Source of the DNA: Phapecoctavirus DIJ07P1
Direction: 5' to 3' (one strand)
Sequence record: OZ035743.1
Length of the DNA: 64,000 bases
Under the pieces are notes generated by a model, which saw nothing but the letters and a program-made list of their open reading frames with translations, was not told the origin of the DNA and searched no databases. This document shows, one piece after another, positions 14,427 through 32,271 of the stretch. The position numbers and the translations under genes were made by a program. Numbering within the stretch: the stretch's first letter is position 1; each line of letters opens with the position of its first letter.

Positions 14427-15099
14427 GTGCTAGTGCCTCCTCATAGGAAATTCGGATTTTCCCATTTTTAATATCCTCTAAAGATGCTTTATATTCTTCC
14501 CAGTTAATCCCAATAGCAGCTTCTTTCTCTTCTTTTGTCAGATTAGCAAAAGGCATAGGATTGTTTCCAAAAACATCGTCTGGGTGGATATAAGCCATGA
14601 TACGAAGTGGACAAGGTGTTGCCTGAATACCATGATTCAAACCAGCAGCTTTCAAACGGTGTCCCCATTCGGCATCTTCAAAACCATAACCGTGAGTGTA
14701 AGGGCGGAAATAACCCATCTTCTCAACAACGGCACGAGAATACATTGCAAATTGACACATTGCAAGTTCCCAGAGAATAACTTCTCCTTTGCTTCCAACA
14801 ACTTTATCTTTGAAGTACTCCGGCATACCAAAAAAATCCCATCCTCCAGAAACAGCTTGATCTACAAAGTATGTTTCCCATCCTTCCATGACTGGGTAGC
14901 AATCATCATCAAAAATAAACCAATAATCATAACCTTCTTCATAAAACTGGTGCATAAGTTCATTCCTGGCGTAAGCTACACCTTTACGATCTGGATCGTT
15001 GAATACTCGAAAATCTGCATGTGGATCTGTTACAAGATAGTCTTTAAGTGGACGGACACCTACAGTGATAACACCCACTCCGATTTTAATATTTTCCAT
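14416..15099 (-). CDS. Glycosyltransferase, GT-A fold (DxD)
   Basis: 227 aa; FIFDDDCYP DxD motif and YGFEDAEWG block. Confidence 0.6.
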   Translation of the reverse strand: MENIKIGVGVITVGVRPLKDYLVTDPHADFRVFNDPDRKGVAYARNELMHQFYEEGYDYWFIFDDDCYPVMEGWETYFVDQAVSGGWDFFGMPEYFKDKVVGSKGEVILWELAMCQFAMYSRAVVEKMGYFRPYTHGYGFEDAEWGHRLKAAGLNHGIQATPCPLRIMAYIHPDDVFGNNPMPFANLTKEEKEAAIGINWEEYKASLEDIKNGKIRISYEEALAHVK

Positions 15100-15107
15100 T
15101 TTCTCTC

Positions 15108-15671
15108 CTAGATAGTTTTACTGTGATCGTGACAGTGTAATAAATGATGTATAGACCGTTGAGGATTTGTTTGACCTAATCTGTAAATGTGAAACAGATA
15201 CATTCCCCGCATCAATCCTAACCTCTTTCCTTTTTCATGTAAAGTGCGAGAGAAAATTAGGTCGAATTGGATAGATTTTTCTTCGAAAGGAATTTCATTC
15301 CACAATGATTTTCTAAAAAGCAAAAAGAAACCTGCCAGAGGTGTTCCGAAAGGAACTTCTTCAACACTCACTTTATGATATTCTCTTGCAATCTTAGCAT
15401 ATTCTATATGGTTTAGAATATCTGGATCATCGTTAATTTGGTTAGAGAAAAGCTGATAACCACTACCTAACCTGTTACAAGTTGCACCTATTACATCAAA
15501 AGGCGGGTTTGACATAACAAGCTCTTCAAGCATAGATGGTTGATCAGGCAGGAGGAACATTGTATCGGTATCTCTTAAGCACACCCAACTATCATCTGGA
15601 AGAACGGCAATAGCTTCATTGATAGCCTTGCCGATATTTCCTGTCAGATAGGGAGTAATATAATAAATCAT
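15108..15671 (-). CDS. Putative GT-A-like glycosyltransferase
   Basis: 187 aa; VCLRDTDTMF DxD-like motif. Confidence 0.45.
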   Translation of the reverse strand: MIYYITPYLTGNIGKAINEAIAVLPDDSWVCLRDTDTMFLLPDQPSMLEELVMSNPPFDVIGATCNRLGSGYQLFSNQINDDPDILNHIEYAKIAREYHKVSVEEVPFGTPLAGFFLLFRKSLWNEIPFEEKSIQFDLIFSRTLHEKGKRLGLMRGMYLFHIYRLGQTNPQRSIHHLLHCHDHSKTI

Positions 15672-16993: not shown

Positions 16994-17596
16994 TTATGGA
17001 CATTCATACCATTCTTTTTTACCACCGAAGGCCATCACCACATCGCAAATATCCAGACCAGCTTTACCTACACCATATGCTTTCAGTTTCCATTCCCCAT
17101 CTTCACGAACCAAGGAAGCCACGTGGCAGATTGTGTTGCCAGCTACTTCAGGAGCCAGGAAGTCAAAATCCAGAATTTCCACATTGCGCTCGGAGTCGAA
17201 GATTTTAAGCATACCTTCAGAAGCATGACCAAAACGTTTCAGACCTGTATCATCATCAATGGTCAGAACAAAGGCAATCTCTTGTGCATCAGGAGAGATT
17301 TTAGCCAGAGTAATATCAATCTGCTCCATGCTGCCAGTTCCATCACGAACATCGTCACCAGCGAAGGTAGAACGTTCAGGATCAAACTTGTTAGCATAGC
17401 AAACCAGATGACGTGCAGACAGCATTTCAGGATTGCCAGCGGCATTGTGACGACAAACCAGTGCACTTACATCCAGATCCAGTTTAGAATCAGATTTCCA
17501 AGAGAATTCCAGGCGCAGTTCTTTCAGAGCCGGAGCAACTTTCTTCAGGGAAATTTTTTCGCTAGAGCCTTTTTTCAGGGAAATTTTATCAGTCAT
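16994..17596 (-). CDS. terD: TerD-domain protein
   Basis: 200 aa; N-terminal repeated ISLKKG/ISLKK and overall TerD-family character. Confidence 0.75.
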   Translation of the reverse strand: MTDKISLKKGSSEKISLKKVAPALKELRLEFSWKSDSKLDLDVSALVCRHNAAGNPEMLSARHLVCYANKFDPERSTFAGDDVRDGTGSMEQIDITLAKISPDAQEIAFVLTIDDDTGLKRFGHASEGMLKIFDSERNVEILDFDFLAPEVAGNTICHVASLVREDGEWKLKAYGVGKAGLDICDVVMAFGGKKEWYECP

Positions 17597-17881: not shown

Positions 17882-18110
17882 TTCTTCCTCCTAATGTTAT
17901 CTCCGGTTTGTATATACGAAGAATTATAGCATTTTCATTTTCTTTGTCAACCCATTCTTCATAATCAGGCCATACATGAATCTCTACTCTACTTACAATA
18001 TCTTCCATTCGCACAGTCCCAATGAAATACTCTTTGAGACTGCGCATAATGAAAGCTTCTCTCTCGCGCCAATAATTTTCTATGACTTGAGAGGCAAGCT
18101 CGTCGATCAT
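17862..18110 (-). CDS. Hypothetical protein
   Basis: 82-aa ORF. Confidence 0.5.
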   Translation of the reverse strand: MIDELASQVIENYWREREAFIMRSLKEYFIGTVRMEDIVSRVEIHVWPDYEEWVDKENENAIILRIYKPEITLGGRSVKLRN

Positions 18111-18901
18111 TTTTTAGCACCTACTTTAACAACCCACTCTCCGAACTCTTCAGATAAGAGTTTGTCATAAAGCTCTGAATCTGTCAAGTCTAAATCTTTA
18201 ATGCCAATAAAACCAACATTATCATAAGCATTTGCCAGTTCTTTCAGGAAGCCAAACTTCTCATTACCAACGCCAACCATGAACCAATAAATAGGTTTAT
18301 TCTTATTCTCTTCAATAAGACGACGAACAGCACTAGGATCACCATTCTCACCATCCGTCTGGAAGAATACAACACCAGGGGTAACGTCAGCACCTGGTTC
18401 AGACACAGCTACAACCTTTTCACGCTCTACAGATACTGTTTCAGTTTTACCAAGCAGACGATTAAAGAAGCCTTTCTTTGGAGCCTCCTCTTGTACCACT
18501 TGTTTAGTGGTAATATATTTGGTAACAGTGCCAAAATACTCATCGTAGATATCTGCCATTACAGGGGCGTAATTTGTTCCACCTCCGATACGAACATTGC
18601 GCATACATTTACCAACATAGTCATCGTAAACGTCTGCTGTTGCTGGAGTAAGCTCTTGGGAACTCGTATTGAAGGCCCACATATCAATTTGTTGATTATC
18701 GTCGAACAGCATACCAAAAGGAAGCAGTTTACCTACAAAATCACTCACTACCCCACTAGAATATAGACCATGCATACTACCAGAAATATCTAGAGCACAT
18801 GCTACACGAAGAACAATCTTACCTTCATTCAGGTTCTTATTCTTTTTCAGAGAGAAAGCAAGGTTTTCTTGACGTTTTTTCAGGCTGATTTTCTCGGACA
18901 T
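18107..18901 (-). CDS. vWA-domain protein with TerD-like N-terminus (TerY/TerF-like)
   Basis: 264 aa; N-terminal MSEKISLKK...SLKK; MIDAS motif DISGSM (DxSxS). Confidence 0.75.
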   Translation of the reverse strand: MSEKISLKKRQENLAFSLKKNKNLNEGKIVLRVACALDISGSMHGLYSSGVVSDFVGKLLPFGMLFDDNQQIDMWAFNTSSQELTPATADVYDDYVGKCMRNVRIGGGTNYAPVMADIYDEYFGTVTKYITTKQVVQEEAPKKGFFNRLLGKTETVSVEREKVVAVSEPGADVTPGVVFFQTDGENGDPSAVRRLIEENKNKPIYWFMVGVGNEKFGFLKELANAYDNVGFIGIKDLDLTDSELYDKLLSEEFGEWVVKVGAKK

Positions 18902-20106: not shown

Positions 20107-20303
20107 TACTCCTCCTCCTCATTGAAGTCAATATCTGCAAGGAGTTGGAATTTACGGAAGTTACGACAACCTTCATAAATATAACAATCACGACAAACTG
20201 CTAGAACACTTGGGGGATATATGCCTCCCATCGGTGCGAATCGTTTTTCGTCATCATAACGGACACCAATGTCTTCATCAATTATATAGATACGGATTCT
20301 CAT
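20106..20303 (-). CDS. Hypothetical Cys-containing small protein
   Basis: 65-aa ORF. Confidence 0.5.
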   Translation of the reverse strand: MRIRIYIIDEDIGVRYDDEKRFAPMGGIYPPSVLAVCRDCYIYEGCRNFRKFQLLADIDFNEEEE

Positions 20304-21412
20304 TTACCAAGCCCTCGTTTCACAGCAGCTACCATCCCGTCTTCCAAAGATTGAACTTCATTAATATAATCAACACGAGCAGCACGGGCTTCCGTATTGA
20401 TGCGGTTAGTTTCTTCCAACATCTTAACCAAGTTTTCCTGATCGTGACGCAGAGTTTCAATATCCAACACTTGACGGTTAGCCAGTGCTGCTGCTTCGAT
20501 CTGATTCTGTGTGGCAAGATCGCTACCCAGTTTAATTGCCAGGTTAAATTCATCAAGAACGTTATTCTGCGTCTCTGCTGCTTTCATTTGACGTAAGCTC
20601 TCGATATACATTGAGAAGTTAGCAGAGTAAGCAGGAATAACATTATTTACTATGTTACGCGCAGATCGCATTAAGCTTGCAGAAACTTTTTGCATACCTT
20701 GTACACGCGGTCCCATTTGGACACACAGTAGGCGCAATGCTTTTAAATCTGCAATACGAATCTCCAGAAGATCCAAAGTATCTCGGATCACTTGTCGCTG
20801 TTCTACTGCATCTTCTGGAAGAGCAGCCAAAGCTTGTTCTTCTTTTTCATAGGTTGCTGTTAGAAGCTGCATATCTCGGTTCAAACTTGCAGCATATTGT
20901 CCAATAGCTTGATGTAGCTTTTCAAGATATACCAAGGAATCTTCTTCTTTGCGAATATCCATTTGAAGGTTTTTTACCAACTCTTCAATACGGTTATTAA
21001 CATTATCAAACTCCCCAAACAGATCTTCTTTCATACCCATAACTTTTTTAATGAGTTTAGTAATACCCTTGCTTTGTTTAATAGAGTTTGGATCAAGTTG
21101 TTTTGCCTGTTTAATCAAAGCTGTGAGTCGTTCACTCATCTGATCGCCTTGATTACTACGTTGATGTTTTAATACCTCGGCATTCAAGGAACGCAAGGTT
21201 GTTCCTGCCTCTGCTCCAATCTCTTCGATCTCCTGTCGGGTCATAGAAGGCAAAACTGGAACTTCTTGCGGTGCCGCTGGTGCATAAACAGGACTGGCAT
21301 CTAACACGCTTGGAGCGAATACAGATTTACTTGCATCTGTTGTTGCAGCAAATACGCTCATTTCAGGTTTCTTCTGACAGCCAGTAGCTGCTTTTAAAAA
21401 TGGACTTGTCAT
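20300..21412 (-). CDS. Coiled-coil protein, possibly TelA-like
   Basis: 370 aa, helical/coiled-coil composition; TelA assignment rests only on size, composition and Ter context. Confidence 0.6.
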   Translation of the reverse strand: MTSPFLKAATGCQKKPEMSVFAATTDASKSVFAPSVLDASPVYAPAAPQEVPVLPSMTRQEIEEIGAEAGTTLRSLNAEVLKHQRSNQGDQMSERLTALIKQAKQLDPNSIKQSKGITKLIKKVMGMKEDLFGEFDNVNNRIEELVKNLQMDIRKEEDSLVYLEKLHQAIGQYAASLNRDMQLLTATYEKEEQALAALPEDAVEQRQVIRDTLDLLEIRIADLKALRLLCVQMGPRVQGMQKVSASLMRSARNIVNNVIPAYSANFSMYIESLRQMKAAETQNNVLDEFNLAIKLGSDLATQNQIEAAALANRQVLDIETLRHDQENLVKMLEETNRINTEARAARVDYINEVQSLEDGMVAAVKRGLGK

Positions 21413-21999
21413 TCTTCATTCTCCTCTTCTGCATCTCTTATATATGGTGAAACACCGTACTCTTTAGCTACTTTAACCCAATCGTCCCATTTATACAACC
21501 ATAATTTTCCTTCGGTCCCTTCTTTATCTGATTTCAACCACATATTAGGTTGCTTACCTGGGTACATGCGATTAGGTTTACGATTATAACCTCTAACACA
21601 TCTTGTCGCAAACCTATCTACCAGAACAAGAACATATTTATATTCGTGGTTCAACGGCTCTTTGGAAGTGGCTTTAGGATTAGCCCCTAACTCTGCTGCC
21701 AGTTTTTGCCAATGAGCACCGTGTCTACTAAACTTACCCATACAACCATCAATAGCATGAGCAATTTCGTGCTTCATTGTATCCACGATCATATCTCTTG
21801 TAGAGTTCTTATGCAAGTGCCAATTTACAACAACAATTTTATCTCGGTAGTTGCACCAACCGAAAGAGTTATTCACTTTGTTTCTAACACAAGCTTTATA
21901 TCCTGCTTCACGTAACATGTTGTAGTAAACAGGAAAATCTTCTTTTATTTCCTGCATCACTTCCCACCACAAGAGTTGCAAGTCTCTCTCGGTATACAT
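21409..21999 (-). CDS. SprT-like zinc metalloprotease
   Basis: 196 aa; MKHEIAHAIDG HExxH motif. Confidence 0.65.
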   Translation of the reverse strand: MYTERDLQLLWWEVMQEIKEDFPVYYNMLREAGYKACVRNKVNNSFGWCNYRDKIVVVNWHLHKNSTRDMIVDTMKHEIAHAIDGCMGKFSRHGAHWQKLAAELGANPKATSKEPLNHEYKYVLVLVDRFATRCVRGYNRKPNRMYPGKQPNMWLKSDKEGTEGKLWLYKWDDWVKVAKEYGVSPYIRDAEEENEE

Positions 22000-23582: not shown

Positions 23583-23602
23583 AAGTCTCTCCTATAAAAT
23601 AG

Positions 23603-23618
23603 CCTCCCGAAGGAGGCT
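23603..23618 (-). terminator. Hairpin downstream of terC
   Basis: gcctcc-cgaa-ggaggc stem-loop, A/T-rich tail on minus strand. Confidence 0.5.
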
Positions 23619-23624
23619 CATCTA

Positions 23625-24599
23625 TTAAACAGAAGCTTCTTCTTTTTCAGGGAAGATAAAGCTTGCAATAACACCAAGAGATAATGTGCCTAGAACAATC
23701 ATCAGACTTACGTTAGGGGAAATATCATGCGGGAGGAATGACCACTTGGCATGAAGTGTTTCACCGAACGGGTGATACATAAGTTTAGCACCAACAAACA
23801 CCAGAACCACAGCAACAGCTTTCTCTAAGTGAACCAGATATTTCACAGCTACACTTAACACAAAGAAAAGTGCACGTAAACCAAGAACAGCCATCAGCAT
23901 TGCAGAATAAACTAGCAGAGGTTCTTGTGTCACACCGATCACAGCCGGAACTGAATCAAAAGAGAAGACAATATCTGTAAGCTCAATAACAAACACACAA
24001 AGAAGAGCAGGAGTTGCATATTTAATACCATTCTTAATGGTGATGAACTTTTCACCATCCAGTGCATTGTGCACAGGCAGAACTTTACCTACTAAACGAA
24101 CAGCCCAATGTTTAGAGTAATCAATATCCTCTTCTTCGTCACCACCTTTGATGATAGCCACGGCAGACCAAGCTACAATCAAACCGAACAACACTTGGAC
24201 CGACCAATGAAGGTTAAACAAAGCGGTCCCTGCTGCAACAAAAATACCTCGGAAGACAATGGCTCCTGCAATCCCCCAAAGTAGAATCTTATGTTGGAGA
24301 TGTGTGCTCTTAATTCCAAAGCTTGCAAAAATTGCCATGAACACCATTAGGTTATCTACAGAAAGACTCTTTTCCAACACATAGCCACTTAGGAAAAGCG
24401 CGGCAAACTCTTTACCATGTTCTACCCAAATGAATGCGTAATACCCTAAAGCTAAAGCAATCCAAAAAACAGACCAAAGCAAAGCAGATTTAATTCCAAT
24501 TTCTTTATTCTCTTTATGACCAAAGAAATCGATACCAATAGACAATGCCAAAATACCAACTAAAACAACTACATCAATAATTGGGAAACCGAGTTGCAT
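23625..24599 (-). CDS. terC: TerC-family integral membrane protein
   Basis: 324 aa, multiple hydrophobic segments; EKSLSVDN matches TerC signature. Confidence 0.8.
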   Translation of the reverse strand: MQLGFPIIDVVVLVGILALSIGIDFFGHKENKEIGIKSALLWSVFWIALALGYYAFIWVEHGKEFAALFLSGYVLEKSLSVDNLMVFMAIFASFGIKSTHLQHKILLWGIAGAIVFRGIFVAAGTALFNLHWSVQVLFGLIVAWSAVAIIKGGDEEEDIDYSKHWAVRLVGKVLPVHNALDGEKFITIKNGIKYATPALLCVFVIELTDIVFSFDSVPAVIGVTQEPLLVYSAMLMAVLGLRALFFVLSVAVKYLVHLEKAVAVVLVFVGAKLMYHPFGETLHAKWSFLPHDISPNVSLMIVLGTLSLGVIASFIFPEKEEASV

Positions 24600-24616
24600 T
24601 CTTTTCTCCTCTCTCT

Positions 24617-24677
24617 GCGGGGGAACTATTCCCCCGCTTCATGTGATATATCTTACTCTTTTTAAGAACTATGTCAA
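24617..24677 (-). promoter_or_regulatory. Promoter-leader cassette driving terC (TTGACA-16-TAAGAT plus 5' leader hairpin)
   Basis: Minus strand reads TTGACA-tagttcttaaaaagag-TAAGAT-atatcacatgaa-GCGGGGGAATAGTTCCCCCGC-agagagaggagaaaag-ATG; same architecture as the 46.5-52.7 kb array. Confidence 0.7.
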
Positions 24678-24680
24678 CAC

Positions 24681-24902
24681 TTATTTTGTTGAATGAGAGG
24701 AAAAGATTCCTCGTAATACCGCCAGAATAAACGAAACACAAACCACGGTCCAGAAGGTTACTGGGACAGTGATATCTGCATGACCCATAACTTCAGCAAC
24801 ATAGTTGTAAGCCAGCAACAGTAACCAAGCTGGAATCAAACTAAGCATAAAAGCAATAACAAAAAAGCTTACCACTGCAACAATACCTGCAAAAACACCC
24901 AT
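24681..24902 (-). CDS. Small membrane protein
   Basis: 73 aa, two hydrophobic segments. Confidence 0.5.
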   Translation of the reverse strand: MGVFAGIVAVVSFFVIAFMLSLIPAWLLLLAYNYVAEVMGHADITVPVTFWTVVCVSFILAVLRGIFSSHSTK

Positions 24903-24914
24903 ACTAATCTCCTC

Positions 24915-25388
24915 TTAAAGTTTATAAATAGTCACATCGTGACCTGTTTTTACTAAAGTTTCTTCAATCATCACTTGGATGATAGCCCAATTACCTCCAG
25001 CATATCCAGCGCCAATCATAGGTAAGCCGATCTTACATTTTTGGTCACGGAGAAGCAAATCATTAGCCATAGCTATTAGTGCATCGTAAAGTGCATCATA
25101 GTCCAACTGACGACCTTTAGCATTGTATCCGTAACGGTATTGCCCGTATAGATTATATACCAAAGGGTCTGATTGTTCGTCTGGCACCCCTAAACTAAAA
25201 GAACCTAACTTACTTTGATCACCAGCCATTGTGTCTAAATCTGCCGCATATGCATAAGGGAATGCTCGTTTAATTTGCGGAGCAATTCCTGCTCCCATAT
25301 TACACATACAATTGCAACAATGAGCAATAACAGTTACTTCACCTGCTTTAGCGGCATCAATAAGATTACCTGTTTTCATTTTAAGCAT
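24915..25388 (-). CDS. Macro-domain protein (ADP-ribose binding/processing)
   Basis: GNLIDAAKAGEVTVIAHCCNCMCNMGAGIA and IGLPMIGAGYAGG blocks resemble macro-domain motifs; start set at Met after AAGGAG RBS. Confidence 0.65.
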   Translation of the reverse strand: MLKMKTGNLIDAAKAGEVTVIAHCCNCMCNMGAGIAPQIKRAFPYAYAADLDTMAGDQSKLGSFSLGVPDEQSDPLVYNLYGQYRYGYNAKGRQLDYDALYDALIAMANDLLLRDQKCKIGLPMIGAGYAGGNWAIIQVMIEETLVKTGHDVTIYKL

Positions 25389-25401
25389 TTTTAGCTCCTT
25401 A

Positions 25402-26229
25402 TTACAGAATGTGTTGTTTTGTGTAACGATCCAAGAATTCAAAGTTTTCAGCATACTTTGAAATTCGGTTGTAACCTTCTCCCAAACATCCGAAGAAAAG
25501 TTGCTCTACATAGTAGTGTGGCAATTGGCTAAGAATGATTTTGAAGTCTTCGTGATTTTGGCCCATAAGATACTTAATAGGACGAACAAGACACTGTGCA
25601 TCACGTTCTTCATTAATCATTTTAACAAACGCTTCTGGTGTATTGATGTAGTTAAAATTCAGTTTAGCTTCAGTATCTGCTTGATTACCTTCATATTTTG
25701 CAAAATACAAGAAGTAAACATCATTTTTAACTTGATTTTCATCAAGAATCTCAATCAGTTTGTCTTCATGAGTTCCGGTGATATTTACATCATCAATGAA
25801 CACAAGCTTCTTATCACCCCAGAATTCTTTGTTGCAGTAGAATGTATCCCCATCAATAAGTTTCTTACGACTAGCTTTATCCAAGAAACCATAATCGTTG
25901 ATATAGCTAACTTTACGATGAATAATATCCAGTTCTGCTGAACGACCTTGATCATATTGTGCTTGCAACATATTAAAGTAATTAATAAAATGATCTGTCA
26001 TCATTGTTGCAGCATTGTGCACATGGTTATAAGGAGAAGGGATGATAACAAATTGTTCCCCAATATGTTTCATTGCCACTTGAGCAAAAAACTGAAGTGC
26101 CAATTCTTTACCCATACGACGCGCAGCTTGGTTACTACCAAATTTCAATTTTGAATAGTCTTTGATATCAAAAGTAGCAGTTTCCAGGTCATCAAATTTA
26201 TTTGCAAAAATTTGAGTTTGATTACGCAT
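25402..26229 (-). CDS. Phosphoribosyltransferase-like (PRTase) protein
   Basis: 275 aa; KLVFIDDVNITGTHEDKL resembles PRPP-binding loop. Confidence 0.55.
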   Translation of the reverse strand: MRNQTQIFANKFDDLETATFDIKDYSKLKFGSNQAARRMGKELALQFFAQVAMKHIGEQFVIIPSPYNHVHNAATMMTDHFINYFNMLQAQYDQGRSAELDIIHRKVSYINDYGFLDKASRKKLIDGDTFYCNKEFWGDKKLVFIDDVNITGTHEDKLIEILDENQVKNDVYFLYFAKYEGNQADTEAKLNFNYINTPEAFVKMINEERDAQCLVRPIKYLMGQNHEDFKIILSQLPHYYVEQLFFGCLGEGYNRISKYAENFEFLDRYTKQHIL

Positions 26230-26899
26230 TTACAATTTCTCCTCTTTTAAGTTTCTCTAGTAAGTCGTTAGGGTTCTTAATATGACAGAAGTTAATCCCT
26301 ATGTCAACACATTTACCATCAAATTCTTCGCTGTCCCCAACATGTAAAATCTCTTCAGCCTTCAAAGGAATGCTTGAATATGTGGCGGTCCTAACAAAGA
26401 ATCTAGGATCTGGTTTACATAACAGATGTTCGTCTGAAAAATGCATAAATTCAAAACAATTCCAACTGTCGAACATACAAGCACGACGCAAAATATCCCC
26501 AGATATAAAATTAGTATTGCTTTTAATACTAAGATCATATTTACCAGACAAGTATAGCAAACAAACTGGCAAATCTAAAGCGATATGTGGAGGAAATTTA
26601 AGAAACCATTGCTCACACTCAAAACGCATTTGTGCAGATTCTACAGGGGTTAAACCTATCTTTCTTCCCAACATATTCCATGCATATGCTACACCTTCTG
26701 CACACCCATTTAGTGCAGCATTATCCATAATTTCTTTGGCATCTTTATATGCTTCTTTTGCCGCACGTTCAGACATTCTACCATATGTAGCAATAGTGTG
26801 CGTACGTGCATCTGCATAGTTTTGATTGGCAGAAATAAGAGTATTCCATACATCAAAAGAAATATGTTTTATTGTCATACTAGGCCCACCACGCATCAA
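26222..26899 (-). CDS. HAD-like hydrolase (non-canonical motif I)
   Basis: ISFDVWNTLI (DxWxT in place of DxDxT) and ILHVGDSEEFDG (motif IV-like); true start may be Met at 26878. Confidence 0.55.
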   Translation of the reverse strand: MMRGGPSMTIKHISFDVWNTLISANQNYADARTHTIATYGRMSERAAKEAYKDAKEIMDNAALNGCAEGVAYAWNMLGRKIGLTPVESAQMRFECEQWFLKFPPHIALDLPVCLLYLSGKYDLSIKSNTNFISGDILRRACMFDSWNCFEFMHFSDEHLLCKPDPRFFVRTATYSSIPLKAEEILHVGDSEEFDGKCVDIGINFCHIKNPNDLLEKLKRGEIVNA

Positions 26900-27485
26900 G
26901 ATTTAAGTTACTGTCTACCACAACTTGTTCTATGTGGTAGCCTTTTATCTGTATCCCACTGTTCAAGAGCATATCATACGCTTCATTGAAACGCAACTTA
27001 TCTTCTGCGGAATATAAGCGAGCATTATAAAATCGGTAATCAATTTCTTCAGCATTAGAAGAAATACGGAAGAAGTTTGTTTCTACTTCGGGATCACTTG
27101 CTGAAGTCTTAATGTGAACTTCTCCATAATTTTCTTTACTTAGATCCATGAAAAGAACACAGGCAACATGTTTAAACATTCGTTCCAGTTTGTAACGAAC
27201 AACATTGAAACCTGCATTCTCAAGTTTTTCTACACACTGCAACATTAAAGTAGTGTCGAGATCGCTTTGATACTTTGTTAACATACGATCACGTTGAGAC
27301 TTTGTATCCCGATGTAAATCAATTGTTGTGCATTTGGCACCAATAATCTTAGCTGCTTTCATCAACTCTTCAGAACTAACGTTAGATAAAGTAAGATGAA
27401 AATGGGCTTTCCACACTTTTTTAGCAGGGACACCAAAAGATTTATCCCCACTATTCGGCATGTTGACTACTACACTATGTTGCAT
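26880..27485 (-). CDS. Hypothetical protein
   Basis: 201 aa; one HxTx element (HLTL) but no second, so 2H phosphoesterase not supported. Confidence 0.55.
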   Translation of the reverse strand: MQHSVVVNMPNSGDKSFGVPAKKVWKAHFHLTLSNVSSEELMKAAKIIGAKCTTIDLHRDTKSQRDRMLTKYQSDLDTTLMLQCVEKLENAGFNVVRYKLERMFKHVACVLFMDLSKENYGEVHIKTSASDPEVETNFFRISSNAEEIDYRFYNARLYSAEDKLRFNEAYDMLLNSGIQIKGYHIEQVVVDSNLNLDAWWA

Positions 27486-27500
27486 TACTTATCTCCTCAC

Positions 27501-27725
27501 TTAAAATGGAAGTCTTTGAAGTTCATCTCCTCCAATATCAAGTAATTTAGCAACATCTCGATCAGAAAGCAACTCTTTTCTTTGTAAAATATCCACAAGG
27601 GTTGCAAGAATCTCCTTAACGTCCCGATCACTGTTCTTCAACAGTTCTCCTGCCGTCCCTACTCTATCTCCTACAGCAAAATATGTAACCATGAAACCTC
27701 CTAAGTTAATCTGATTGCCAACCAC
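27501..27725 (-). CDS. Hypothetical protein
   Basis: 74-aa ORF. Confidence 0.45.
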   Translation of the reverse strand: MVGNQINLGGFMVTYFAVGDRVGTAGELLKNSDRDVKEILATLVDILQRKELLSDRDVAKLLDIGGDELQRLPF

Positions 27726-28176
27726 TTGCCGTTTTGGTCCATAATCTTTGATTATCTGACCCTCTGAAAGGTTTTGTAGTTGGATTGTTTATTTCGTACT
27801 TTCCGTCTACAATAATGTCAATAAGATTTTTAATATACAAAGGCACTTCCTCAAAAGTATATCCTGTATACACCATTATATCTTTGCTTGACCCATAAAC
27901 GTCTCTAACCTTTTCTATAAGGCTTTTAACATTGTGAATATTCTGCGGATCTAATGGTTCTCCTCCTAAAATTGTTAAACCTTTTACAAATGGTCTTGAC
28001 AAATCTTTTAAAACTTGCTCTACATTTTCGTCAGTAAACGGTTTCCCATAAGAATAAGACCAGGCTTTTTGGTTAAAACAGCCACGACAACCGTGGCTAC
28101 AACCACTAACCCAGAGGGAGCACCTAACTCCCTCACCATTAATAAGATCTACAGGTTCATATCCTGCAAAATTCAA
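27706..28176 (-). CDS. nrdG: Anaerobic ribonucleotide reductase activating protein (radical SAM)
   Basis: 156 aa; CSLWVSGCSHGCRGCFN contains CxxxCxxC; directly downstream of nrdD with 4-nt overlap. Confidence 0.85.
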   Translation of the reverse strand: MNFAGYEPVDLINGEGVRCSLWVSGCSHGCRGCFNQKAWSYSYGKPFTDENVEQVLKDLSRPFVKGLTILGGEPLDPQNIHNVKSLIEKVRDVYGSSKDIMVYTGYTFEEVPLYIKNLIDIIVDGKYEINNPTTKPFRGSDNQRLWTKTASGWQSD

Positions 28177-29987
28177 AGATGTTTCTCCCTTTGCAAAACT
28201 TCCTGCATTTTACCTTTGTTATAAGGCCGTGAATTAGGGGCAGAAAGATACCCTGATACACGCCTAACTACAGAAATAGTTTCTTCTTCATGGTTGCCAC
28301 AATCAGGGCACTCAAACCCTTTAGCCGTTGCCTTAAATTCTCCATGAAAACCACACTTAAAGCATTGATCCACGGGCTGATTAATACCAAAATAGTGAAT
28401 ATGTTCATAAGCGTAGTCTACTAAAGTCTCCAAAGCTTCTAAGTTATTCTTTAAGTTTGGTGTTTCGACATAACTTATGTTACCACCATTGCTAATCTGT
28501 GCAAAACCTGCTTCATAATCCCATTTTTCAAAAGGATTTGTTACCAACCATACAGGTTGGTGAAAAGAGTTGGTAAGATAGTCTCTTTCTACCAAACCTG
28601 GGTATTTTTCATTTAAAGCTGTTGCAAACTTATAGCACAAGGATTCTGCTGGAGTTCCATAGAGACTAAACGCCAACTTAGATCGTTCTTTAAACACAGC
28701 ACACACATCTTTCATATGTTGCAGAACGCTTTTACCAAGTTCCTTTTTATCTTTTTCTTCTGGATAAAGGATTTCCAAAGCTTCGGCAAGACCTACATAA
28801 CCAATACTAATAGAAGCATAACCACCTTCAAACAAAACACCAATTTCATCATTGGCATTTAAACGCGCTAAAGCCCCTTCCATGAAAAGAATAGGGTTTT
28901 CAGATGCTTTGGTATGTTTAATACGGTTTACACGTAACATGTGAGCATCGTAGGCTATCTCCATATGTTTATTAAGGAGGTCGGTGAAAGATTCTCCTTT
29001 ACTTCTCGCTTCCGCAGCAATCAGAGGCAAGTTGATAGAAACTACTCCAAGGTTGAATCGTCCATCATATTTTTCTCCTTGTTCGGTGGCATAGTACGAC
29101 AAAAAGGAACGACAACCCATACTCGTAACAGTACCATCTGCTGATCCCGTAACTTCTTTGTTCAAAGGAACAGAAATAAAATCTGGATAAATGCGATCAG
29201 CACAACATGCCAAAGCTTGTTGCTTAAGGTCATAGTTAGGATCACTAGGTTTCATGTTCACACCTTCTTGTAAAAAGAAAATAACTTTAGGAAATACAGG
29301 TGTTACATGATCTTTGCCTAGACCATTACTATGCACTTTAAGATAGTTAGCTGTGATCATTCTGCCAAAAACAGAGGTATCCAGGCCCATACTGATTGTA
29401 ATAAAAGGAGATTGTCCATTTACACTCATTAAAGTATTAACCTGATACAAGAGAGTTTGCATAGCATCATATACATCTTGTTCGGTCATTTCTAGGGCTT
29501 CTTTCCTTGCATAACAACCGTAGCGACGTTTAGTTATCTCCATGTTTTTAAGGAAACTAGCTTCAACATAAGGACTAAGACCTTTATCAATGTGCGCACA
29601 CGTCTGACCTCCATACTGACTGGAGGCAACAGCTTGGATGATTTGAGTTAGCACTGTAGTAGCTACTCCAATAGATTTTGGTTTTTCTATCTGTGCAGCA
29701 CCGATCTTAAAACCATTCTCTAACATATCTTGATAATTAACAAGACAACAGTTTGTAAGAGGAGAGAGCAGATAATCCAAGTCGTGAATATGTCCAAAAC
29801 CTTCTGTATGCCATTCTGACAAGTTTTTTGGCAGTATCTGTGTCATTGCCATATGTTTGCTTAAAATCCCCGCCAAGAGATCCCTATGCGTGTTAACGAG
29901 GTGGGAAGGTTTGTTTGCATTCTCTCTAGTGTATGTTTCTGAAGTGCGATCTAAAAAAGAAAAAACATCTTGGTACAAATCTTTCAT
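28173..29987 (-). CDS. nrdD: Anaerobic ribonucleoside-triphosphate reductase
   Basis: 604 aa; C-terminal CFKCGFHGEF...CPDCGN zinc site followed by glycyl-radical motif RRVSGYL. Confidence 0.9.
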   Translation of the reverse strand: MKDLYQDVFSFLDRTSETYTRENANKPSHLVNTHRDLLAGILSKHMAMTQILPKNLSEWHTEGFGHIHDLDYLLSPLTNCCLVNYQDMLENGFKIGAAQIEKPKSIGVATTVLTQIIQAVASSQYGGQTCAHIDKGLSPYVEASFLKNMEITKRRYGCYARKEALEMTEQDVYDAMQTLLYQVNTLMSVNGQSPFITISMGLDTSVFGRMITANYLKVHSNGLGKDHVTPVFPKVIFFLQEGVNMKPSDPNYDLKQQALACCADRIYPDFISVPLNKEVTGSADGTVTSMGCRSFLSYYATEQGEKYDGRFNLGVVSINLPLIAAEARSKGESFTDLLNKHMEIAYDAHMLRVNRIKHTKASENPILFMEGALARLNANDEIGVLFEGGYASISIGYVGLAEALEILYPEEKDKKELGKSVLQHMKDVCAVFKERSKLAFSLYGTPAESLCYKFATALNEKYPGLVERDYLTNSFHQPVWLVTNPFEKWDYEAGFAQISNGGNISYVETPNLKNNLEALETLVDYAYEHIHYFGINQPVDQCFKCGFHGEFKATAKGFECPDCGNHEEETISVVRRVSGYLSAPNSRPYNKGKMQEVLQREKHL

Positions 29988-30061: not shown

Positions 30062-30080
30062 AAAGGCGCAAAGTGCGCCT
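30062..30080 (-). terminator. Rho-independent terminator
   Basis: aggcgca-aag-tgcgcct hairpin followed by T-run on minus strand. Confidence 0.7.
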
Positions 30081-30090
30081 TTAAGTTTTA

Positions 30091-31476
30091 TCATTTGGAG
30101 AGGAATTGTCTTCCCATGATCTTACCGTTCTTCACAGCGGTCCCATCGTGTCCATTGTAATCCCAGGTTCCATCGATATTACGCAAGAAGCTATCACGAA
30201 CAGTATAGGCTTTACCGTTCTCTACTTTACTTTCTTCCACAATGATTGCCATAACAAGCTTATTTTCAATTTCGGTAGTAACCGATTCTTTGATACCCTC
30301 TGTAACTTCACGATCATATTGGATATAAACTCGCTCCTCGGTTACTTGCACGTCTACCACATTTTTAAATGTGTAGGTCTGTTGCGTAGTGTAGAGGACA
30401 CGAACGACACTCTTCTTACCTACCGGAGGCTTCTTACGAGGCTTACGGTAACGTGGTTTAGGGTTGTTAGTTGGAAGCCAACCAACAATATCCCGATCAT
30501 ATCCAACATGACCCCAAGTGAAATGCGTAGCCGATCCACTATCCGTAGTTCCGTCACGAAAGAGAACTTCTACGTGACCACCACAAGGGCGGTGTCCACC
30601 ATTATTATAGTTGTATTTTGCCGTGCGCGGGAGAATGAAGTATTCTTTAATCGCCCACTCTTCCAGATTGTCGATATTCCAAGTGAATACTGTTCCCTTA
30701 GCAACATCTGTTTGACCATTGTTGAAGCGAACCTGCACGAAATCTTCTGAAGGCATAACACCTGTGTTCGGCAGATATTCAAATGCAGTATCTTCCGCTA
30801 CAAACTGTTCTTCCTCTTGCTCCTCAATACTTGGCACAGGCGCAGCTTCATCGTATTTCGCAGCAAACATATTTTTAAATTCTTGAGCCGTGACTTCTAC
30901 AAGGCCGCGATCACCAGTAGCAGCAGAGTGTGGGCGTGGTAAATCCCCAACTTCAATATGCATTGCATCTAAGCCTGCTTGACGATCAAAGAAGATAACC
31001 TTGCGGAATTGTTTATCTTTATATTGTGGCAGTTCATACATACTTGGATCGATTGTCTTCAAACGTTCAGCATCTTCTGGCTTCCAGAAGCTTTTACCTG
31101 TTGCAAATCTAAAGTCTACCAGTAGTTTAACAACATCTCCTAATGATAAACTATCTGCATCTACGAAAACGTCTTCGATTCCCAATAACCCTGATTTCTT
31201 AAGAATCAGATCTAACATGTAACCTCCTGTGGTTTGTTCTGCATCTGGATAACGATCAACACTGGTGCTGGTTACACCGTTTATTTCACCAGTGGAGGCA
31301 TTGTAGGAAATATATGGGAAGGTCATATCGTTCATTGCAAAATCACCTGAACAGGTTGGATCATCTTCTCCCTCCCAACCATACACCTTCACAATACCTT
31401 CACACAATTTGTCATACACACCAGCGCGACGTGCTGCTTCAGCAACTTCCTGTTTACGGGCAAATTTATTAATCAT
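30091..31476 (-). CDS. Hypothetical protein
   Basis: Start set at MINKFARK after AGGAGG RBS. Confidence 0.6.
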   Translation of the reverse strand: MINKFARKQEVAEAARRAGVYDKLCEGIVKVYGWEGEDDPTCSGDFAMNDMTFPYISYNASTGEINGVTSTSVDRYPDAEQTTGGYMLDLILKKSGLLGIEDVFVDADSLSLGDVVKLLVDFRFATGKSFWKPEDAERLKTIDPSMYELPQYKDKQFRKVIFFDRQAGLDAMHIEVGDLPRPHSAATGDRGLVEVTAQEFKNMFAAKYDEAAPVPSIEEQEEEQFVAEDTAFEYLPNTGVMPSEDFVQVRFNNGQTDVAKGTVFTWNIDNLEEWAIKEYFILPRTAKYNYNNGGHRPCGGHVEVLFRDGTTDSGSATHFTWGHVGYDRDIVGWLPTNNPKPRYRKPRKKPPVGKKSVVRVLYTTQQTYTFKNVVDVQVTEERVYIQYDREVTEGIKESVTTEIENKLVMAIIVEESKVENGKAYTVRDSFLRNIDGTWDYNGHDGTAVKNGKIMGRQFLSK

Positions 31477-32023
31477 GATTCCTCCTGTTAATTGCCATAG
31501 ATGCACGAGGTTCGGCTATGGCTGTTGCATAAATATATGGATGACCTTGTGGGGACAATCTTGTTCCGAATGACCCTAATTCTAAACCATTCATGTCTTC
31601 CACGTCAAGACCAATATCTGTCTCTATGATTTGAGTTTGAACTTTGTAATACGTCCAAAAGAAATAGCGCATAGTTTCGGCATATTCTTTGACGGACGCT
31701 CCTGGATAAAACTCAATAATTTCCAACTTTAAGAAAATGTTAAAATGAGCATCATCCAACTCTTCTTCTGTTCGGTAGCAAGGTGTTAGAGCCATATAAG
31801 GATGATCTGTTGAAAATTCAAACCCATCTTTCTCCATCTGGAGGAAAGACTGCTCTGCACTGGCTACGTAGAACTTACCATTAGGATGCCCCAAGGGGCG
31901 ATCCTCTTTACCTTCTGGTAATGTATATGCAAGGATATCCGCATCTACAAGATAAGGGACTTCCAACATCTCCGCAAATCGCCCGTAGTAATCAATAGCT
32001 TGAGCAATAACAGCTACGTTCAT
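31469..32023 (-). CDS. Hypothetical protein
   Basis: 184-aa ORF. Confidence 0.6.
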   Translation of the reverse strand: MNVAVIAQAIDYYGRFAEMLEVPYLVDADILAYTLPEGKEDRPLGHPNGKFYVASAEQSFLQMEKDGFEFSTDHPYMALTPCYRTEEELDDAHFNIFLKLEIIEFYPGASVKEYAETMRYFFWTYYKVQTQIIETDIGLDVEDMNGLELGSFGTRLSPQGHPYIYATAIAEPRASMAINRRNHD

Positions 32024-32271
32024 GATCTTCCTCCTGTGCGGAAAGCGCGTTTAGTAATGCTGGACATAATGATTAAATCTTGTAAAGTCATATCTGGGAA
32101 CTGTTGTTCTAAAACTCCCTCAACAGCACCTATAATATCTGATAATTCAACAAGTTGCATTATTTTGCAATCCTGTTCAACAGCATCAAAAAGTTCTTCT
32201 ACTTCCTCTTTAATCTTTTCTATGCTGCCATAAGGTTGTTTCTTAATGTCTGTTATGTGATACCCCGCCAT
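32020..32271 (-). CDS. Hypothetical protein
   Basis: 83-aa ORF. Confidence 0.5.
   Translation of the reverse strand: MAGYHITDIKKQPYGSIEKIKEEVEELFDAVEQDCKIMQLVELSDIIGAVEGVLEQQFPDMTLQDLIIMSSITKRAFRTGGRS

What the first reader, a model, noticed from the sequence alone, without database searches (positions are those of the whole stretch)
24915..27485. Macro-domain / PRTase-like / HAD-like gene trio beside the Ter module
Three consecutive genes carry macro-domain-like blocks, a PRPP-binding-like loop (VFIDDVNITGTHE) and HAD motif-IV-like GDSEEFDG with a non-canonical motif I (DxWxT), followed by an unknown 201-aa protein and nrdDG. PRTase plus HAD phosphatase has been proposed alongside Ter genes as a route to a nucleoside-like metabolite; a macro domain adds ADP-ribose handling. 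This could be a phage pathway for a modified nucleotide or for countering NAD/ADP-ribose-based defence.
Basis: partly seen in the sequence, partly recalled or inferred. Interest (0 to 1): 0.75.

Follow-up and report, generated by a model that had tools for sequence, protein, structure and literature searches.

The report
Phage Ter module genes plus anti-DarT macrodomain
The three genes are real, but they look like two already-described things lying side by side in a common E. coli phage: a two-enzyme unit (phosphoribosyltransferase plus HAD hydrolase) that belongs to a phage-borne tellurite-resistance-type (Ter) system, and a separate macrodomain of the T4 Tk.4/AdfM family that undoes a bacterial DNA-ADP-ribosylating defence.

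Summary
The window is a Phapecoctavirus (phAPEC8/ESCO13-like E. coli myovirus, 99.5% identical to published genomes). On the minus strand lie nrdD, nrdG, a 63-aa gene, a 201-aa unknown, HAD, PRTase, macro, a 73-aa membrane protein and TerC, between two terminator-like hairpins.

The PRTase is Pfam PRTase_3, and its predicted fold is closest to ComF. The HAD has motifs I-IV, but Trp replaces the second Asp of motif I. The macrodomain is of the SCO6735/DarG class.

The "trio" mostly splits in two:
- **HAD-PRTase_3** is an invariant pair, adjacent in 27 of 27 sequence clusters. It sits near TerD, TerC, TelA or vWA-TerF genes in 15 of 27. This matches the known two-enzyme Ter "nucleoside-like metabolite" module, already noted in jumbo phages. 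Its product is still unknown.
- **The macrodomain** is a homologue of T4 Tk.4 (AdfM), recently shown genetically to counter DarTG2. It occurs in about 3000 phage genomes, nearly all without the PRTase.

The 201-aa protein belongs to an undescribed viral family, elsewhere fused to NUDIX or HD domains.

A recurring macro gene near Ter/PRTase/HAD clusters in a few unrelated phages leaves a weak case for coupling. I rate this a new member of known kinds, of moderate-to-low interest.

The parts
30062..30082 (-). Terminator-like hairpin upstream of nrdD; candidate upstream boundary of the transcription unit
   Evidence: 9-bp stem with 5 G-C pairs followed by a T run
28173..29987 (-). nrdD, anaerobic ribonucleotide reductase large subunit
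   Evidence: GenBank/RefSeq annotation of 99% identical phages
27706..28176 (-). nrdG, activating enzyme
   Evidence: Annotation of identical phages
27501..27692 (-). Small conserved ORF (63 aa), function unknown
   Evidence: PHROG 17780 at E 1e-39; annotated as a 192-nt CDS in ESCO13; travels with the block in Stephanstirmvirinae
26880..27485 (-). p201, a 201-aa protein of an undescribed viral family with two ferredoxin-like halves and a sheet rich in conserved His, Lys, Arg and Glu. Probably a separate gene, not part of the PRTase/HAD unit.
26222..26878 (-). HAD-superfamily hydrolase, the invariant upstream partner of the PRTase. Motif I is FDVWNTL (nucleophile Asp, Trp at Asp+2), motif II SNT, motif III KP, motif IV GDSEEFD.
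   Evidence: PDB 2om6 at E 3.6e-5 with the same FDVWNTL; NCBIfam HAD-IA subfamilies to 1e-8; PHROG 14393 'hydrolase'; motifs conserved in about 45 relatives; adjacent to PRTase_3 in 27 of 27 clusters
25402..26229 (-). Type I phosphoribosyltransferase of Pfam family PRTase_3 (ComF-like), with PRPP loop LVFIDDVNITGTHE and a C-terminal helical extension
24915..25388 (-). Macrodomain protein (157 aa) of the T4 Tk.4/AdfM family, SCO6735/DarG (ALC1-like) class. Predicted DNA ADP-ribosyl-thymidine glycohydrolase that counters DarTG2.
   Evidence: PHROG 335 at E 1e-55. BLASTP to T4 Tk.4: 37% identity, E 1e-21. PDB SCO6735 at 5e-13, TARG1 and DarG at about 2e-6. NCBIfam and PADLOC DarG hits cover the macro half only. 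Gln and Asn equivalents of SCO6735 Q85 and N27 are present. Tk.4 is the anti-DarTG2 factor AdfM.
24681..24902 (-). 73-aa predicted membrane protein that travels with the macro gene
   Evidence: PHROG 16065; homologues next to the macro in Justusliebigvirus and on contig L010
24617..24677 (-). Promoter-like site (TTGACA-16-TAAGAT) and a G/C hairpin in the TerC leader
   Evidence: no Rfam family matched
23625..24599 (-). TerC-family integral membrane protein
   Evidence: Pfam TerC at E 3e-40
23601..23618 (-). Terminator-like hairpin just after TerC; candidate downstream boundary
   Evidence: 7-bp stem with 5 G-C pairs and a T-rich tail
20300..21412 (-). TelA-like protein (Ter module)
   Evidence: Pfam TelA at E 3e-33
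18107..18901 (-). vWA-TerF-like protein (Ter module)
   Evidence: Pfam vWA-TerF-like at E 1.6e-37
16994..17596 (-). TerD-domain protein (Ter module)
   Evidence: Pfam TerD at E 3e-28

Best explanation
The region is a composite block of auxiliary genes in one candidate transcription unit (nrdD to TerC) of a Phapecoctavirus. It holds at least two functionally separate units.

(1) HAD plus PRTase_3 is the two-enzyme biosynthetic arm of a phage-borne Ter system (TerC, TerD, TelA, vWA-TerF). The inferred mechanism is that the PRTase joins the ribose-5-phosphate of PRPP to an unknown nucleophile. The published model proposes a pyrimidine-like base. The HAD enzyme then removes the 5'-phosphate and releases a free nucleoside-like metabolite. 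That metabolite would act with the membrane-associated Ter proteins. The published proposal is a signal or ligand for superinfection exclusion or membrane and chemical stress protection of the infected cell.

(2) The macrodomain is an orphan, DarG-like enzyme of the T4 Tk.4/AdfM family. The inferred mechanism is removal of ADP-ribose that the host toxin DarT2 puts on thymidines of phage single-stranded DNA, which restores replication.

(3) The 201-aa protein is a third, independent gene. It is probably a nucleotide-binding or nucleotide-processing domain of unknown role.

Shown here: gene structure, family and fold membership, conservation of catalytic motifs, and the gene-neighbourhood statistics. 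Inferred: every substrate, every product and the biological roles.
For: PRTase:
- Pfam PRTase_3 at E 6e-42.
- Invariant PRPP loop.

HAD:
- Motifs I-IV are conserved in about 45 relatives.
- The nearest solved relative, PH1421/2om6, has the same FDVWNTL motif. It is titled a HAD-superfamily phosphatase and groups structurally with pyrimidine 5'-nucleotidases.

Pairing and link to Ter:
- HAD abuts PRTase_3 in 27 of 27 clusters at 70% identity.
- At least one Ter gene lies in the flanks of 15 of 27 clusters, including unrelated jumbo phages and bacterial MAGs.
- In L055, L056 and L057 the pair is embedded in TerC/TerD/vWA(/TelA) arrays.

Literature:
- Ter biosynthetic modules come with two or five enzymes, always including a PRTase and a HAD.
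- Phage Ter systems with PRTase and HAD have been described, with a superinfection role proposed.

Macro:
- Same PHROG as T4 Tk.4, 37% identity, E 1e-21.
- Deleting Tk.4/AdfM sensitises T4 to DarTG2.
- The nearest solved relative, SCO6735, cleaves thymidine-linked ADP-ribose. The residues it needs, Gln85 and Asn27, are matched in the window protein.
- The family is in 2981 phage records against 156 for the PRTase.
- The closest macro relatives are in Pseudomonas, Serratia and Vibrio phages, genera that are essentially absent from the PRTase_3 hit list.

p201:
- Adjacent to the pair in only 2 of 27 clusters.
- Elsewhere it sits in unrelated phage contexts.
Against: - No substrate or product is known for PRTase_3 or its HAD partner. 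The nucleoside idea rests on domain logic.
- The HAD family lacks the Asp+2 general acid/base of classical HAD phosphatases, with Trp or Tyr in all members. It may not be a simple phosphomonoesterase.
- 12 of 27 clusters, including all Rhizobiaceae replicons, show the pair without Ter genes within 10 kb. The pair can therefore work without Ter, or with distant Ter genes.
- TerB is said to accompany biosynthetic modules in bacteria but was not detected here.
- The macro gene recurs close to Ter/PRTase/HAD clusters more often than a naive expectation. It abuts the pair in Stephanstirmvirinae, is one small ORF away in L010, is 6 kb away in L055, and a different macro family lies 3 genes from the Ter cluster of Acinetobacter phage ME3. 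Full independence is not proven.
- Anti-DarTG2 activity has been shown only for T4 Tk.4, at 37% identity, and in a preprint.
Confidence: 0.6

Rival explanations
1. One pathway. Macro, PRTase_3 and HAD (perhaps with p201) act on one ribosyl or ADP-ribosyl small molecule. For example, the macrodomain would bind, trim or recycle the PRTase/HAD product, or an ADP-ribose-derived precursor.
For: - The macro start lies 13 nt after the PRTase stop, in one operon-like block.
- The trio is conserved at 65% (PRTase) and 49% (macro) identity in Justusliebigvirus.
- On contig L010 the order is different (Macro, 89-aa ORF, HAD, PRTase) but the genes stay together.
- In ME3 a different macro family sits beside a Ter cluster that uses different PRTase families.
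- In L055 a macro gene is 6 kb away.
- A rough Poisson estimate for four such cases is 0.006-0.05.
Against: - The macro is in the flanks of only 4 of 27 PRTase_3 clusters.
- The macro family is about 20 times more widespread than the PRTase.
- A member of the family has a demonstrated stand-alone anti-DarTG2 role.
- Phage auxiliary and anti-defence genes cluster for regulatory reasons. L055 also has Acb3 and cREC genes there.
- L010 shares four genes with the window, so it may be a distant relative rather than an independent event.
Confidence: 0.15
2. HAD-PRTase_3 is a stand-alone nucleotide or cofactor salvage unit, an auxiliary metabolic gene pair unrelated to Ter. It would, for example, feed or drain a nucleoside, nicotinamide-riboside-like or base pool during infection, and it sits beside nrdDG for that reason.
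For: - 12 of 27 clusters have no Ter gene in the flanks, and Rhizobiaceae plasmids carry the pair alone.
- In the window it lies between nrdDG and TerC.
- NAD-salvage genes (NMNAT-NUDIX, NadR, PnuC) lie near the pair in L004, L008 and L056.
- RNA-repair and NUDIX genes lie near it in XaC1-like phages.
Against: - Ter genes are uncommon, yet they occur next to the pair in 15 of 27 clusters across unrelated phages and four bacterial phyla.
- The pair is inserted inside Ter arrays in L055-L057.
- PRTase followed by dephosphorylation is wasteful for salvage, which normally keeps the nucleotide.
Confidence: 0.15
3. The genes make a precursor for a modified base in phage DNA or RNA.
For: The block lies beside nucleotide-metabolism genes (nrdDG). 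Two glycosyltransferase-like genes lie 10 kb away, one with a weak TAGT hit.
Against: The HAD step would yield a nucleoside, not a polymerisable nucleotide. No base-exchange, kinase or DNA-modifying enzyme is adjacent. The pair also occurs on bacterial replicons.
Confidence: 0.04

Closest known systems
Two-enzyme (PRTase + HAD) biosynthetic module of Ter systems (Anantharaman, Iyer & Aravind 2012, as summarised in PMC11994780 and PMC7824862)
   Same: A PRTase and a HAD hydrolase lie side by side, linked to TerD, TerC, TelA and vWA-TerF genes. The predicted product is a nucleoside-like metabolite. Phage-borne versions are already noted.
   Different: The PRTase here is Pfam PRTase_3 (ComF-like). 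The ter clusters of enterobacterial plasmids were not hit by this protein. In ME3 the corresponding genes are PRTase_2 and StiP/PELOTA. No TerB, ATP-grasp or TIM-barrel partner is present. The host is a 150-kb virulent coliphage. The HAD lacks Asp+2.
T4 Tk.4 = AdfM, anti-DarT factor macrodomain (bioRxiv 10.1101/2025.11.20.689424)
   Same: Same PHROG (335), about 155 aa, single macrodomain, 37% identity, same conserved Gln and Asn positions. It is a stand-alone gene in a virulent E. coli myovirus.
   Different: A different phage family and a different genomic neighbourhood. In T4 the gene lies between vs and tk. Activity and phenotype are untested for this protein.
SCO6735 (PDB 5E3B) and DarG macrodomains
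   Same: These are the best solved-structure matches. The window protein has Gln in place of the TARG1/DarG catalytic Lys, as in SCO6735, which cleaves thymidine-linked ADP-ribose on DNA.
   Different: There is no C-terminal DarT-binding domain, so it is not a DarG antitoxin proper (34 bits against a 250-bit equivalog cut-off). It also lacks TARG1 Lys84 and Asp125.
ComF/ComFC and nucleobase type I PRTases (HGXPRT, OPRT, UPRT)
   Different: Only about 9-17% identity. It has a distinct N-terminal segment and an extra helical tail of about 85 residues. There is no zinc-finger or competence context. The acceptor is unknown.
PRTase-then-phosphatase routes to free nucleosides, for example CobT/CobC for alpha-ribazole and the angustmycin adenine phospho-sugar transferase plus HAD phosphatase (from my own knowledge; 7f06 appears)
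   Same: The same two-step logic: glycosyl transfer from a phospho-sugar diphosphate, then removal of the phosphate.
   Different: Analogy only. No sequence relationship beyond the superfamily.
NARP1/NARP2 phage NAD reconstitution pathways (from my own knowledge)
   Same: A phage counter-measure built around phosphoribosyl chemistry and ADP-ribose.
   Different: None of the defining enzymes (Prs-like Adps, Nampt-like Namat, Nampt, Nmnat) is present in the genes tested here.

Membership tests
Type I phosphoribosyltransferase, Pfam PRTase_3 (PF15610) | Score above Pfam's curated cut-off over the whole domain | tested here: met
   144.2 bits against a 28.7 cut-off; residues 11-266 match profile positions 9-264 of 264
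Type I phosphoribosyltransferase, Pfam PRTase_3 (PF15610) | PRPP-binding loop: hydrophobic strand, two acidic residues, then x-x-T-G-x-T | tested here: met
   LVFIDDVNITGTHE; D146, D147, T151, G152 and T153 are invariant in 20 diverse homologues
Type I phosphoribosyltransferase, Pfam PRTase_3 (PF15610) | Type I PRTase fold | tested here: met
Type I phosphoribosyltransferase, Pfam PRTase_3 (PF15610) | PRPP-dependent ribosyl-phosphate transfer to a defined acceptor | not testable with these tools
   Needs an enzyme assay
Ter-system two-enzyme biosynthetic module | PRTase and HAD genes adjacent | tested here: met
   Overlapping by 8 nt in the window; adjacent in 27 of 27 clusters
Ter-system two-enzyme biosynthetic module | Genomic linkage to TerD, TerC, TelA or vWA-TerF genes | tested here: met
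   All four are within 9 kb in the window. At least one is in the flanks of 15 of 27 clusters.
Ter-system two-enzyme biosynthetic module | TerB accompanies the biosynthetic module (stated as nearly always the case in bacteria) | tested here: not met
   No Pfam TerB hit among the ORFs scanned between 15.8 and 24.9 kb
Ter-system two-enzyme biosynthetic module | Product is a (pyrimidine-derived) ribonucleoside | not testable with these tools
   Needs biochemistry or metabolomics
HAD-superfamily phosphatase | Motif I nucleophile Asp followed by Asp at +2 (DxD) | tested here: not met
   FDVWNTL: the nucleophile Asp is present, but +2 is Trp. It is Trp or Tyr in all family members. PH1421/2om6 shares this motif.
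HAD-superfamily phosphatase | Motif II (S/T), motif III (K) and motif IV (acidic pair) | tested here: met
   SNTNF, CKPD and HVGDSEEFD are conserved across about 45 relatives
HAD-superfamily phosphatase | Curated profile cut-offs | tested here: not met
   Pfam Hydrolase 19.5 against 26.4 bits. NCBIfam TIGR02252 34.8 against 155 bits. Homologues in L010, L011 and L057 do carry recorded PF00702 hits.
HAD-superfamily phosphatase | Rossmannoid HAD fold with cap | not tested
T4 Tk.4/AdfM-type macrodomain (ALC1-like class: SCO6735, DarG, TARG1) | Macro domain profile match | tested here: met
   Pfam Macro 23.0 against 22 bits, which is marginal. PHROG 335 at E 1e-55. PDB 5e3b at E 5e-13.
T4 Tk.4/AdfM-type macrodomain (ALC1-like class: SCO6735, DarG, TARG1) | Direct homology to T4 Tk.4 | tested here: met
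   BLASTP 37% identity over 124 residues, E 1e-21. T4 Tk.4 is also PHROG 335.
T4 Tk.4/AdfM-type macrodomain (ALC1-like class: SCO6735, DarG, TARG1) | SCO6735-type active-site Gln85 and Asn27 | tested here: met
   Window YGQY aligns with SCO6735 IGQH, and HCCNC aligns with HVCND. Their roles are described in PMC9411070.
T4 Tk.4/AdfM-type macrodomain (ALC1-like class: SCO6735, DarG, TARG1) | TARG1 catalytic Lys84/Asp125 dyad | tested here: not met
   The aligned residues are Gln and Ala
DarG antitoxin (full length) | Macro domain plus C-terminal DarT-binding domain; NCBIfam equivalog cut-off | tested here: not met
   34.3 against 250 bits; only model positions 2-147 of 338 are matched
T4 Tk.4/AdfM-type macrodomain (ALC1-like class: SCO6735, DarG, TARG1) | Protects the phage from DarTG2 and removes ADP-ribose from thymidine in ssDNA | not testable with these tools
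   Needs plaque assays and an enzyme assay
NARP1/NARP2 NAD reconstitution | Prs-like Adps with Nampt-like Namat, or Nampt with Nmnat | tested here: not met
   No such Pfam family in the 30 window ORFs scanned
2H phosphoesterase (considered for p201) | Two HxT/S motifs on a 2H fold | tested here: not met
AbiEi antitoxin (considered for p201) | Match to an AbiEi profile | tested here: inconclusive
   PADLOC PDLC02277/02279 hit by 41 of 41 family members, best 5e-26. No Pfam AbiEi family matches.
AbiEi antitoxin (considered for p201) | N-terminal winged-helix domain and an adjacent AbiEii nucleotidyltransferase | tested here: not met
   The model is two ferredoxin-like halves. No AbiEii-type neighbour in the window or in four other contexts.

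The most novel reading that the evidence does not exclude
Macrodomains are a recurrent, functionally coupled accessory of phage Ter/PRTase/HAD modules. The PRTase/HAD pair would make a ribosylated small molecule. A macrodomain next to it (Tk.4-like here, a different macro family in Acinetobacter phage ME3) would bind, hydrolyse or proofread that molecule or an ADP-ribose-derived relative. This would define a phage pathway linking the unsolved Ter metabolite to ADP-ribose chemistry. The neighbouring p201 domain, fused elsewhere to NUDIX and HD hydrolases, could be a further nucleotide-handling component.
Probability: 0.15. Interest if true: 0.7.

Novelty: new member of a known kind. Interest (0 to 1): 0.35.

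Why it matters
The product and role of the Ter "nucleoside-like metabolite" module have been open since 2012. Here it occurs in its minimal two-gene form, next to a compact Ter set (TerC, TerD, TelA, vWA-TerF). The carrier is an easily handled virulent E. coli phage group with more than 100 sequenced isolates. That makes it a convenient system for identifying the metabolite, and for testing whether phage Ter modules exclude superinfecting phages or protect the infected cell.

The macrodomain extends the newly defined AdfM anti-DarTG2 family to Stephanstirmvirinae. This bears on host-range prediction for therapeutic coliphages.

The 201-aa protein marks an undescribed domain family shared by phages and giant viruses.

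Tried and rejected
- **p201 as an AbiEi-type orphan antitoxin.** The PADLOC models match, but there is no Pfam AbiEi match and no AbiEii neighbour. There is no plasmid homologue either. Left unexplained.
- **p201 as a Ter component.** In ME3 its homologue (ME3_124) lies 80 kb from the Ter cluster, among phosphohydrolase genes.
- **NARP-type NAD reconstitution.** The defining enzymes are absent.
- **Relation of PRTase_3 to the PRTases of classical enterobacterial ter plasmids.** tblastn against 72,556 plasmids hit only Rhizobiaceae and one Hymenobacter.
- **Mn riboswitch (yybP-ykoY) in front of the phage TerC.** No Rfam match anywhere in the window.
- **Resources that failed.** The Anantharaman 2012 paper is not in the library, so I used secondary summaries. 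The afdb50 fold library was unavailable. Literature searches for PF15610/PRTase_3 found nothing. The profile search with the p201 family alignment gave few new members.


Full report
**Source and gene layout.** The window is a Phapecoctavirus, that is, a phAPEC8/ESCO13-like E. coli myovirus of the Stephanstirmvirinae. Bases 23600-28200 are 99.5% identical to Escherichia phage vB_EcoM-Ro121lw. 70 GenBank records cover at least 80% of that stretch.

All genes between about 4 kb and 38 kb run on the minus strand. In the order of transcription they are:
- nrdD, 28173-29987
- nrdG, 27706-28176
- a 63-aa ORF
- a 201-aa ORF ("p201"), 26880-27485
- a HAD-like gene, 26222-26878
- a PRTase gene, 25402-26229
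- a macro gene, 24915-25388
- a 73-aa membrane-protein gene, 24681-24902
- TerC, 23625-24599

Strong terminator-like hairpins on the minus strand lie just upstream of nrdD (30082-30062) and just after TerC (23618-23601). The nine genes therefore form one candidate transcription unit. A promoter-like site and a G/C hairpin also precede TerC.

Further downstream lie a SprT-like protease, TelA, vWA-TerF and TerD.

Two boundaries need correcting. The macro CDS most likely starts at 25388, behind a TAAGGAG site, as RefSeq annotates it. The HAD starts at 26878.

**PRTase.** The protein matches Pfam PRTase_3 ("PRTase ComF-like") end to end at E 6e-42. It has no sequence-level hit in the PDB.

**HAD.** The window protein is below Pfam's cut-off. 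It does hit several NCBIfam HAD-IA subfamilies: REG-2-like at 1e-8, CTE7, and YjjG nucleotidase. It also hits PDB 2om6 (PH1421) at E 3.6e-5, including an identical FDVWNTL motif I.

An alignment of about 45 relatives taken from the fetched loci shows conserved motifs I-IV. The Asp+2 position is Trp, rarely Tyr, in every member. This is a family-wide departure from classical HAD phosphatases. However, PH1421 is published as a HAD-superfamily phosphatase. It also groups structurally with pyrimidine 5'-nucleotidases.

**The pair and the Ter system.** tblastn finds the PRTase in 156 phage records: Stephanstirmvirinae, a Xanthomonas jumbo phage, and Rhizobium, Caulobacter and Brevundimonas phages. 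It also finds it in 17 plasmids, nearly all Rhizobiaceae, and not in the classical enterobacterial ter plasmids.

I fetched loci from GenBank, IMG/VR, GTDB genomes and metagenome assemblies. I then searched their six-frame ORFs with the window's proteins. The 52 loci fall into 27 clusters at 70% PRTase identity.
- The HAD gene is directly upstream of the PRTase in 27 of 27 clusters.
- At least one of TerC, TerD, TelA or vWA-TerF lies in the flanks of 15 of 27 clusters. These include unrelated jumbo-phage contigs and bacterial assemblies from Bacteroidales, Peribacteria and an actinobacterium.
- In L055 the order is TelA, vWA..., TerC, HAD, PRTase_3, TerD. L056 and L057 are similar.

This is the two-enzyme form of the Ter biosynthetic module. 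[quoted passage not shown] 2012, as summarised in PMC11994780). Iyer et al. 2021 already reported phage Ter systems with PRTase and HAD genes in Acinetobacter phage ME3 and "certain other related smaller tailed phages". They proposed a role against superinfecting phages (PMC7824862).

The window differs in four ways:
- It uses PRTase_3, whereas ME3 uses PRTase_2 and StiP/PELOTA.
- It has no detectable TerB.
- Its HAD lacks Asp+2.
- It is carried by a 150-kb coliphage.

In 12 of 27 clusters no Ter gene is nearby. NAD-salvage or RNA-repair genes sometimes flank the pair instead. A Ter-independent role therefore stays a live rival.

**Macrodomain.** Pfam Macro is only marginal (23 against 22 bits). 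PHROG 335 matches at E 1e-55, and the PDB search gives SCO6735 (5e-13), BT1257, TARG1 and DarG. NCBIfam and PADLOC DarG models match over their macro half only.

tblastn finds relatives in 2981 phage records, among them T4 Tk.4. Direct comparison with Tk.4 gives 37% identity at E 1e-21, and T4's gene is also PHROG 335.

A 2025 preprint found tk.4 to be the single T4 gene needed in the presence of DarTG2. It confirmed this with a clean knockout and named the gene adfM.

SCO6735 removes thymidine-linked ADP-ribose from DNA. It depends on Gln85 and Asn27 rather than on the TARG1 Lys/Asp dyad (PMC9411070). The window protein has Gln and Asn at the aligned positions and lacks the dyad.

The most economical reading is that this is an AdfM orthologue: an orphan DarG-like DNA ADP-ribosylglycohydrolase.

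**Is the macro coupled to the pair?** Mostly the evidence says no.
- The macro is in the flanks of only 4 of 27 clusters.
- Its family is about 20 times more widespread than the PRTase.
- Its closest relatives sit in Pseudomonas, Serratia and Vibrio phages, genera essentially missing from the PRTase hit list.

Some proximity does recur:
- The macro abuts the PRTase in both Stephanstirmvirinae genera.
- On the 75-kb contig L010 the order is Macro, 89-aa ORF, HAD, PRTase. In the 16.8 kb examined, that contig shares only these genes and the 73-aa membrane protein with the window.
- On L055 a macro gene is 6 kb away, with cREC and Acb3 genes between.
- In ME3 a gene annotated "Appr-1-p processing protein" lies three genes from vWA, TerC, TerD, PRTase_2, HAD and StiP. 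The window macro does not hit it, and Pfam did not confirm the annotation at E 1e-3.

A rough Poisson estimate for four such cases is 0.006-0.05, depending on how strongly auxiliary genes cluster. I therefore keep the one-pathway reading as a 15% rival.

**The 201-aa protein.**
- It has no Pfam, NCBIfam or PDB sequence match.
- A profile search of 1.84 billion representatives finds 264 clusters.
- Some members are fused to N-terminal NUDIX, HD_4 or HTH_3 domains.
- The AF2 model (pLDDT 81) shows two ferredoxin-like halves. Many invariant His, Lys, Arg and Glu residues lie on the strands.
- Foldseek against viral models finds the same fold in Rheinheimera, Aeromonas, Acinetobacter ME3 and Sinorhizobium phages, and in three giant viruses. 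All are uncharacterised.
- Every family member tested hits two PADLOC models named AbiEi. I saw no AbiEii neighbour and no Pfam AbiEi match, so this label stays unexplained.
- It accompanies the pair only in Phapecoctavirus-like phages.
- In ME3 it lies among phosphohydrolase genes, far from the Ter cluster.

I treat it as a separate gene, probably a nucleotide-handling one.

**Verdict.** The locus combines known kinds: a Ter two-enzyme module and an AdfM-type macrodomain. It lies in a phage group that is already sequenced many times and partly annotated with these very labels.

What remains unknown is biochemical: the acceptor and product of PRTase_3/HAD, what phage Ter modules do, and the role of the p201 family.

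Noticed in passing
window 24617-24677 (minus strand): In the 81-nt gap before TerC there is a TTGACA-16-TAAGAT promoter-like site. It is followed by a perfect hairpin, GCGGGGG-AATAGTT-CCCCCGC, immediately 5' of the TerC ribosome-binding site. No Rfam family matches anywhere in the window, so this TerC has no yybP-ykoY Mn riboswitch.
   Followed up: partly
window 26880-27485; also ME3_124 (L060:31573-32205), L051, L052, L009: The 201-aa protein belongs to a domain family that Pfam does not describe. The family is shared by diverse phages and giant viruses (Klosneuvirus, Fadolivirus, Bodo saltans virus). Some members are fused to NUDIX, HD_4 or HTH domains. All tested members hit PADLOC models labelled AbiEi, without any AbiEii partner nearby.
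   Followed up: partly
L062:9142-18392 (Acinetobacter phage ME3, record 209142-218392): ME3's Ter cluster reads StiP/PELOTA, HAD, PRTase_2, TerD, DUF475/TerC, vWA, then two ORFs, then a gene annotated 'Appr-1-p processing protein', with NAD synthetase two genes further on. Pfam PF11202, formerly a PRTase family, now carries the name 'cysteine protease StiP'.
   Followed up: partly
window 14416-15671 (minus strand): Two adjacent genes are annotated as glycosyltransferases in RefSeq. The first weakly matches Pfam TAGT (TET-associated glycosyltransferase, E 1.3e-3). This hints at possible DNA or sugar modification in this phage group.
   Followed up: no
window 30091-32271 (minus strand): RefSeq product names look unsupported. 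The 471-aa 'ribonucleotide reductase' and the 184-aa 'histidyl tRNA synthetase' have no Pfam hit. The 83-aa gene next to them has only a weak MazG/PRA-PH-like match.
   Followed up: no
window 21409-21999 (minus strand): A SprT-like metalloprotease gene sits inside the Ter module, overlapping the start of TelA. It is conserved in Phapecoctavirus-like loci L015 and L016.
   Followed up: no
L004, L008, L056, L052: NAD-salvage genes (NMNAT-NUDIX, NadR/AAA_28, PnuC, NAMPT) repeatedly lie within a few kb of the HAD-PRTase_3 pair or of p201 homologues in unrelated phages.
   Followed up: no
GenBank records: Several records at least 95% identical to these coliphages are labelled as Campylobacter, Acinetobacter, Klebsiella or Pseudomonas phages. 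These are probably host mislabels or contaminated isolations.
   Followed up: no
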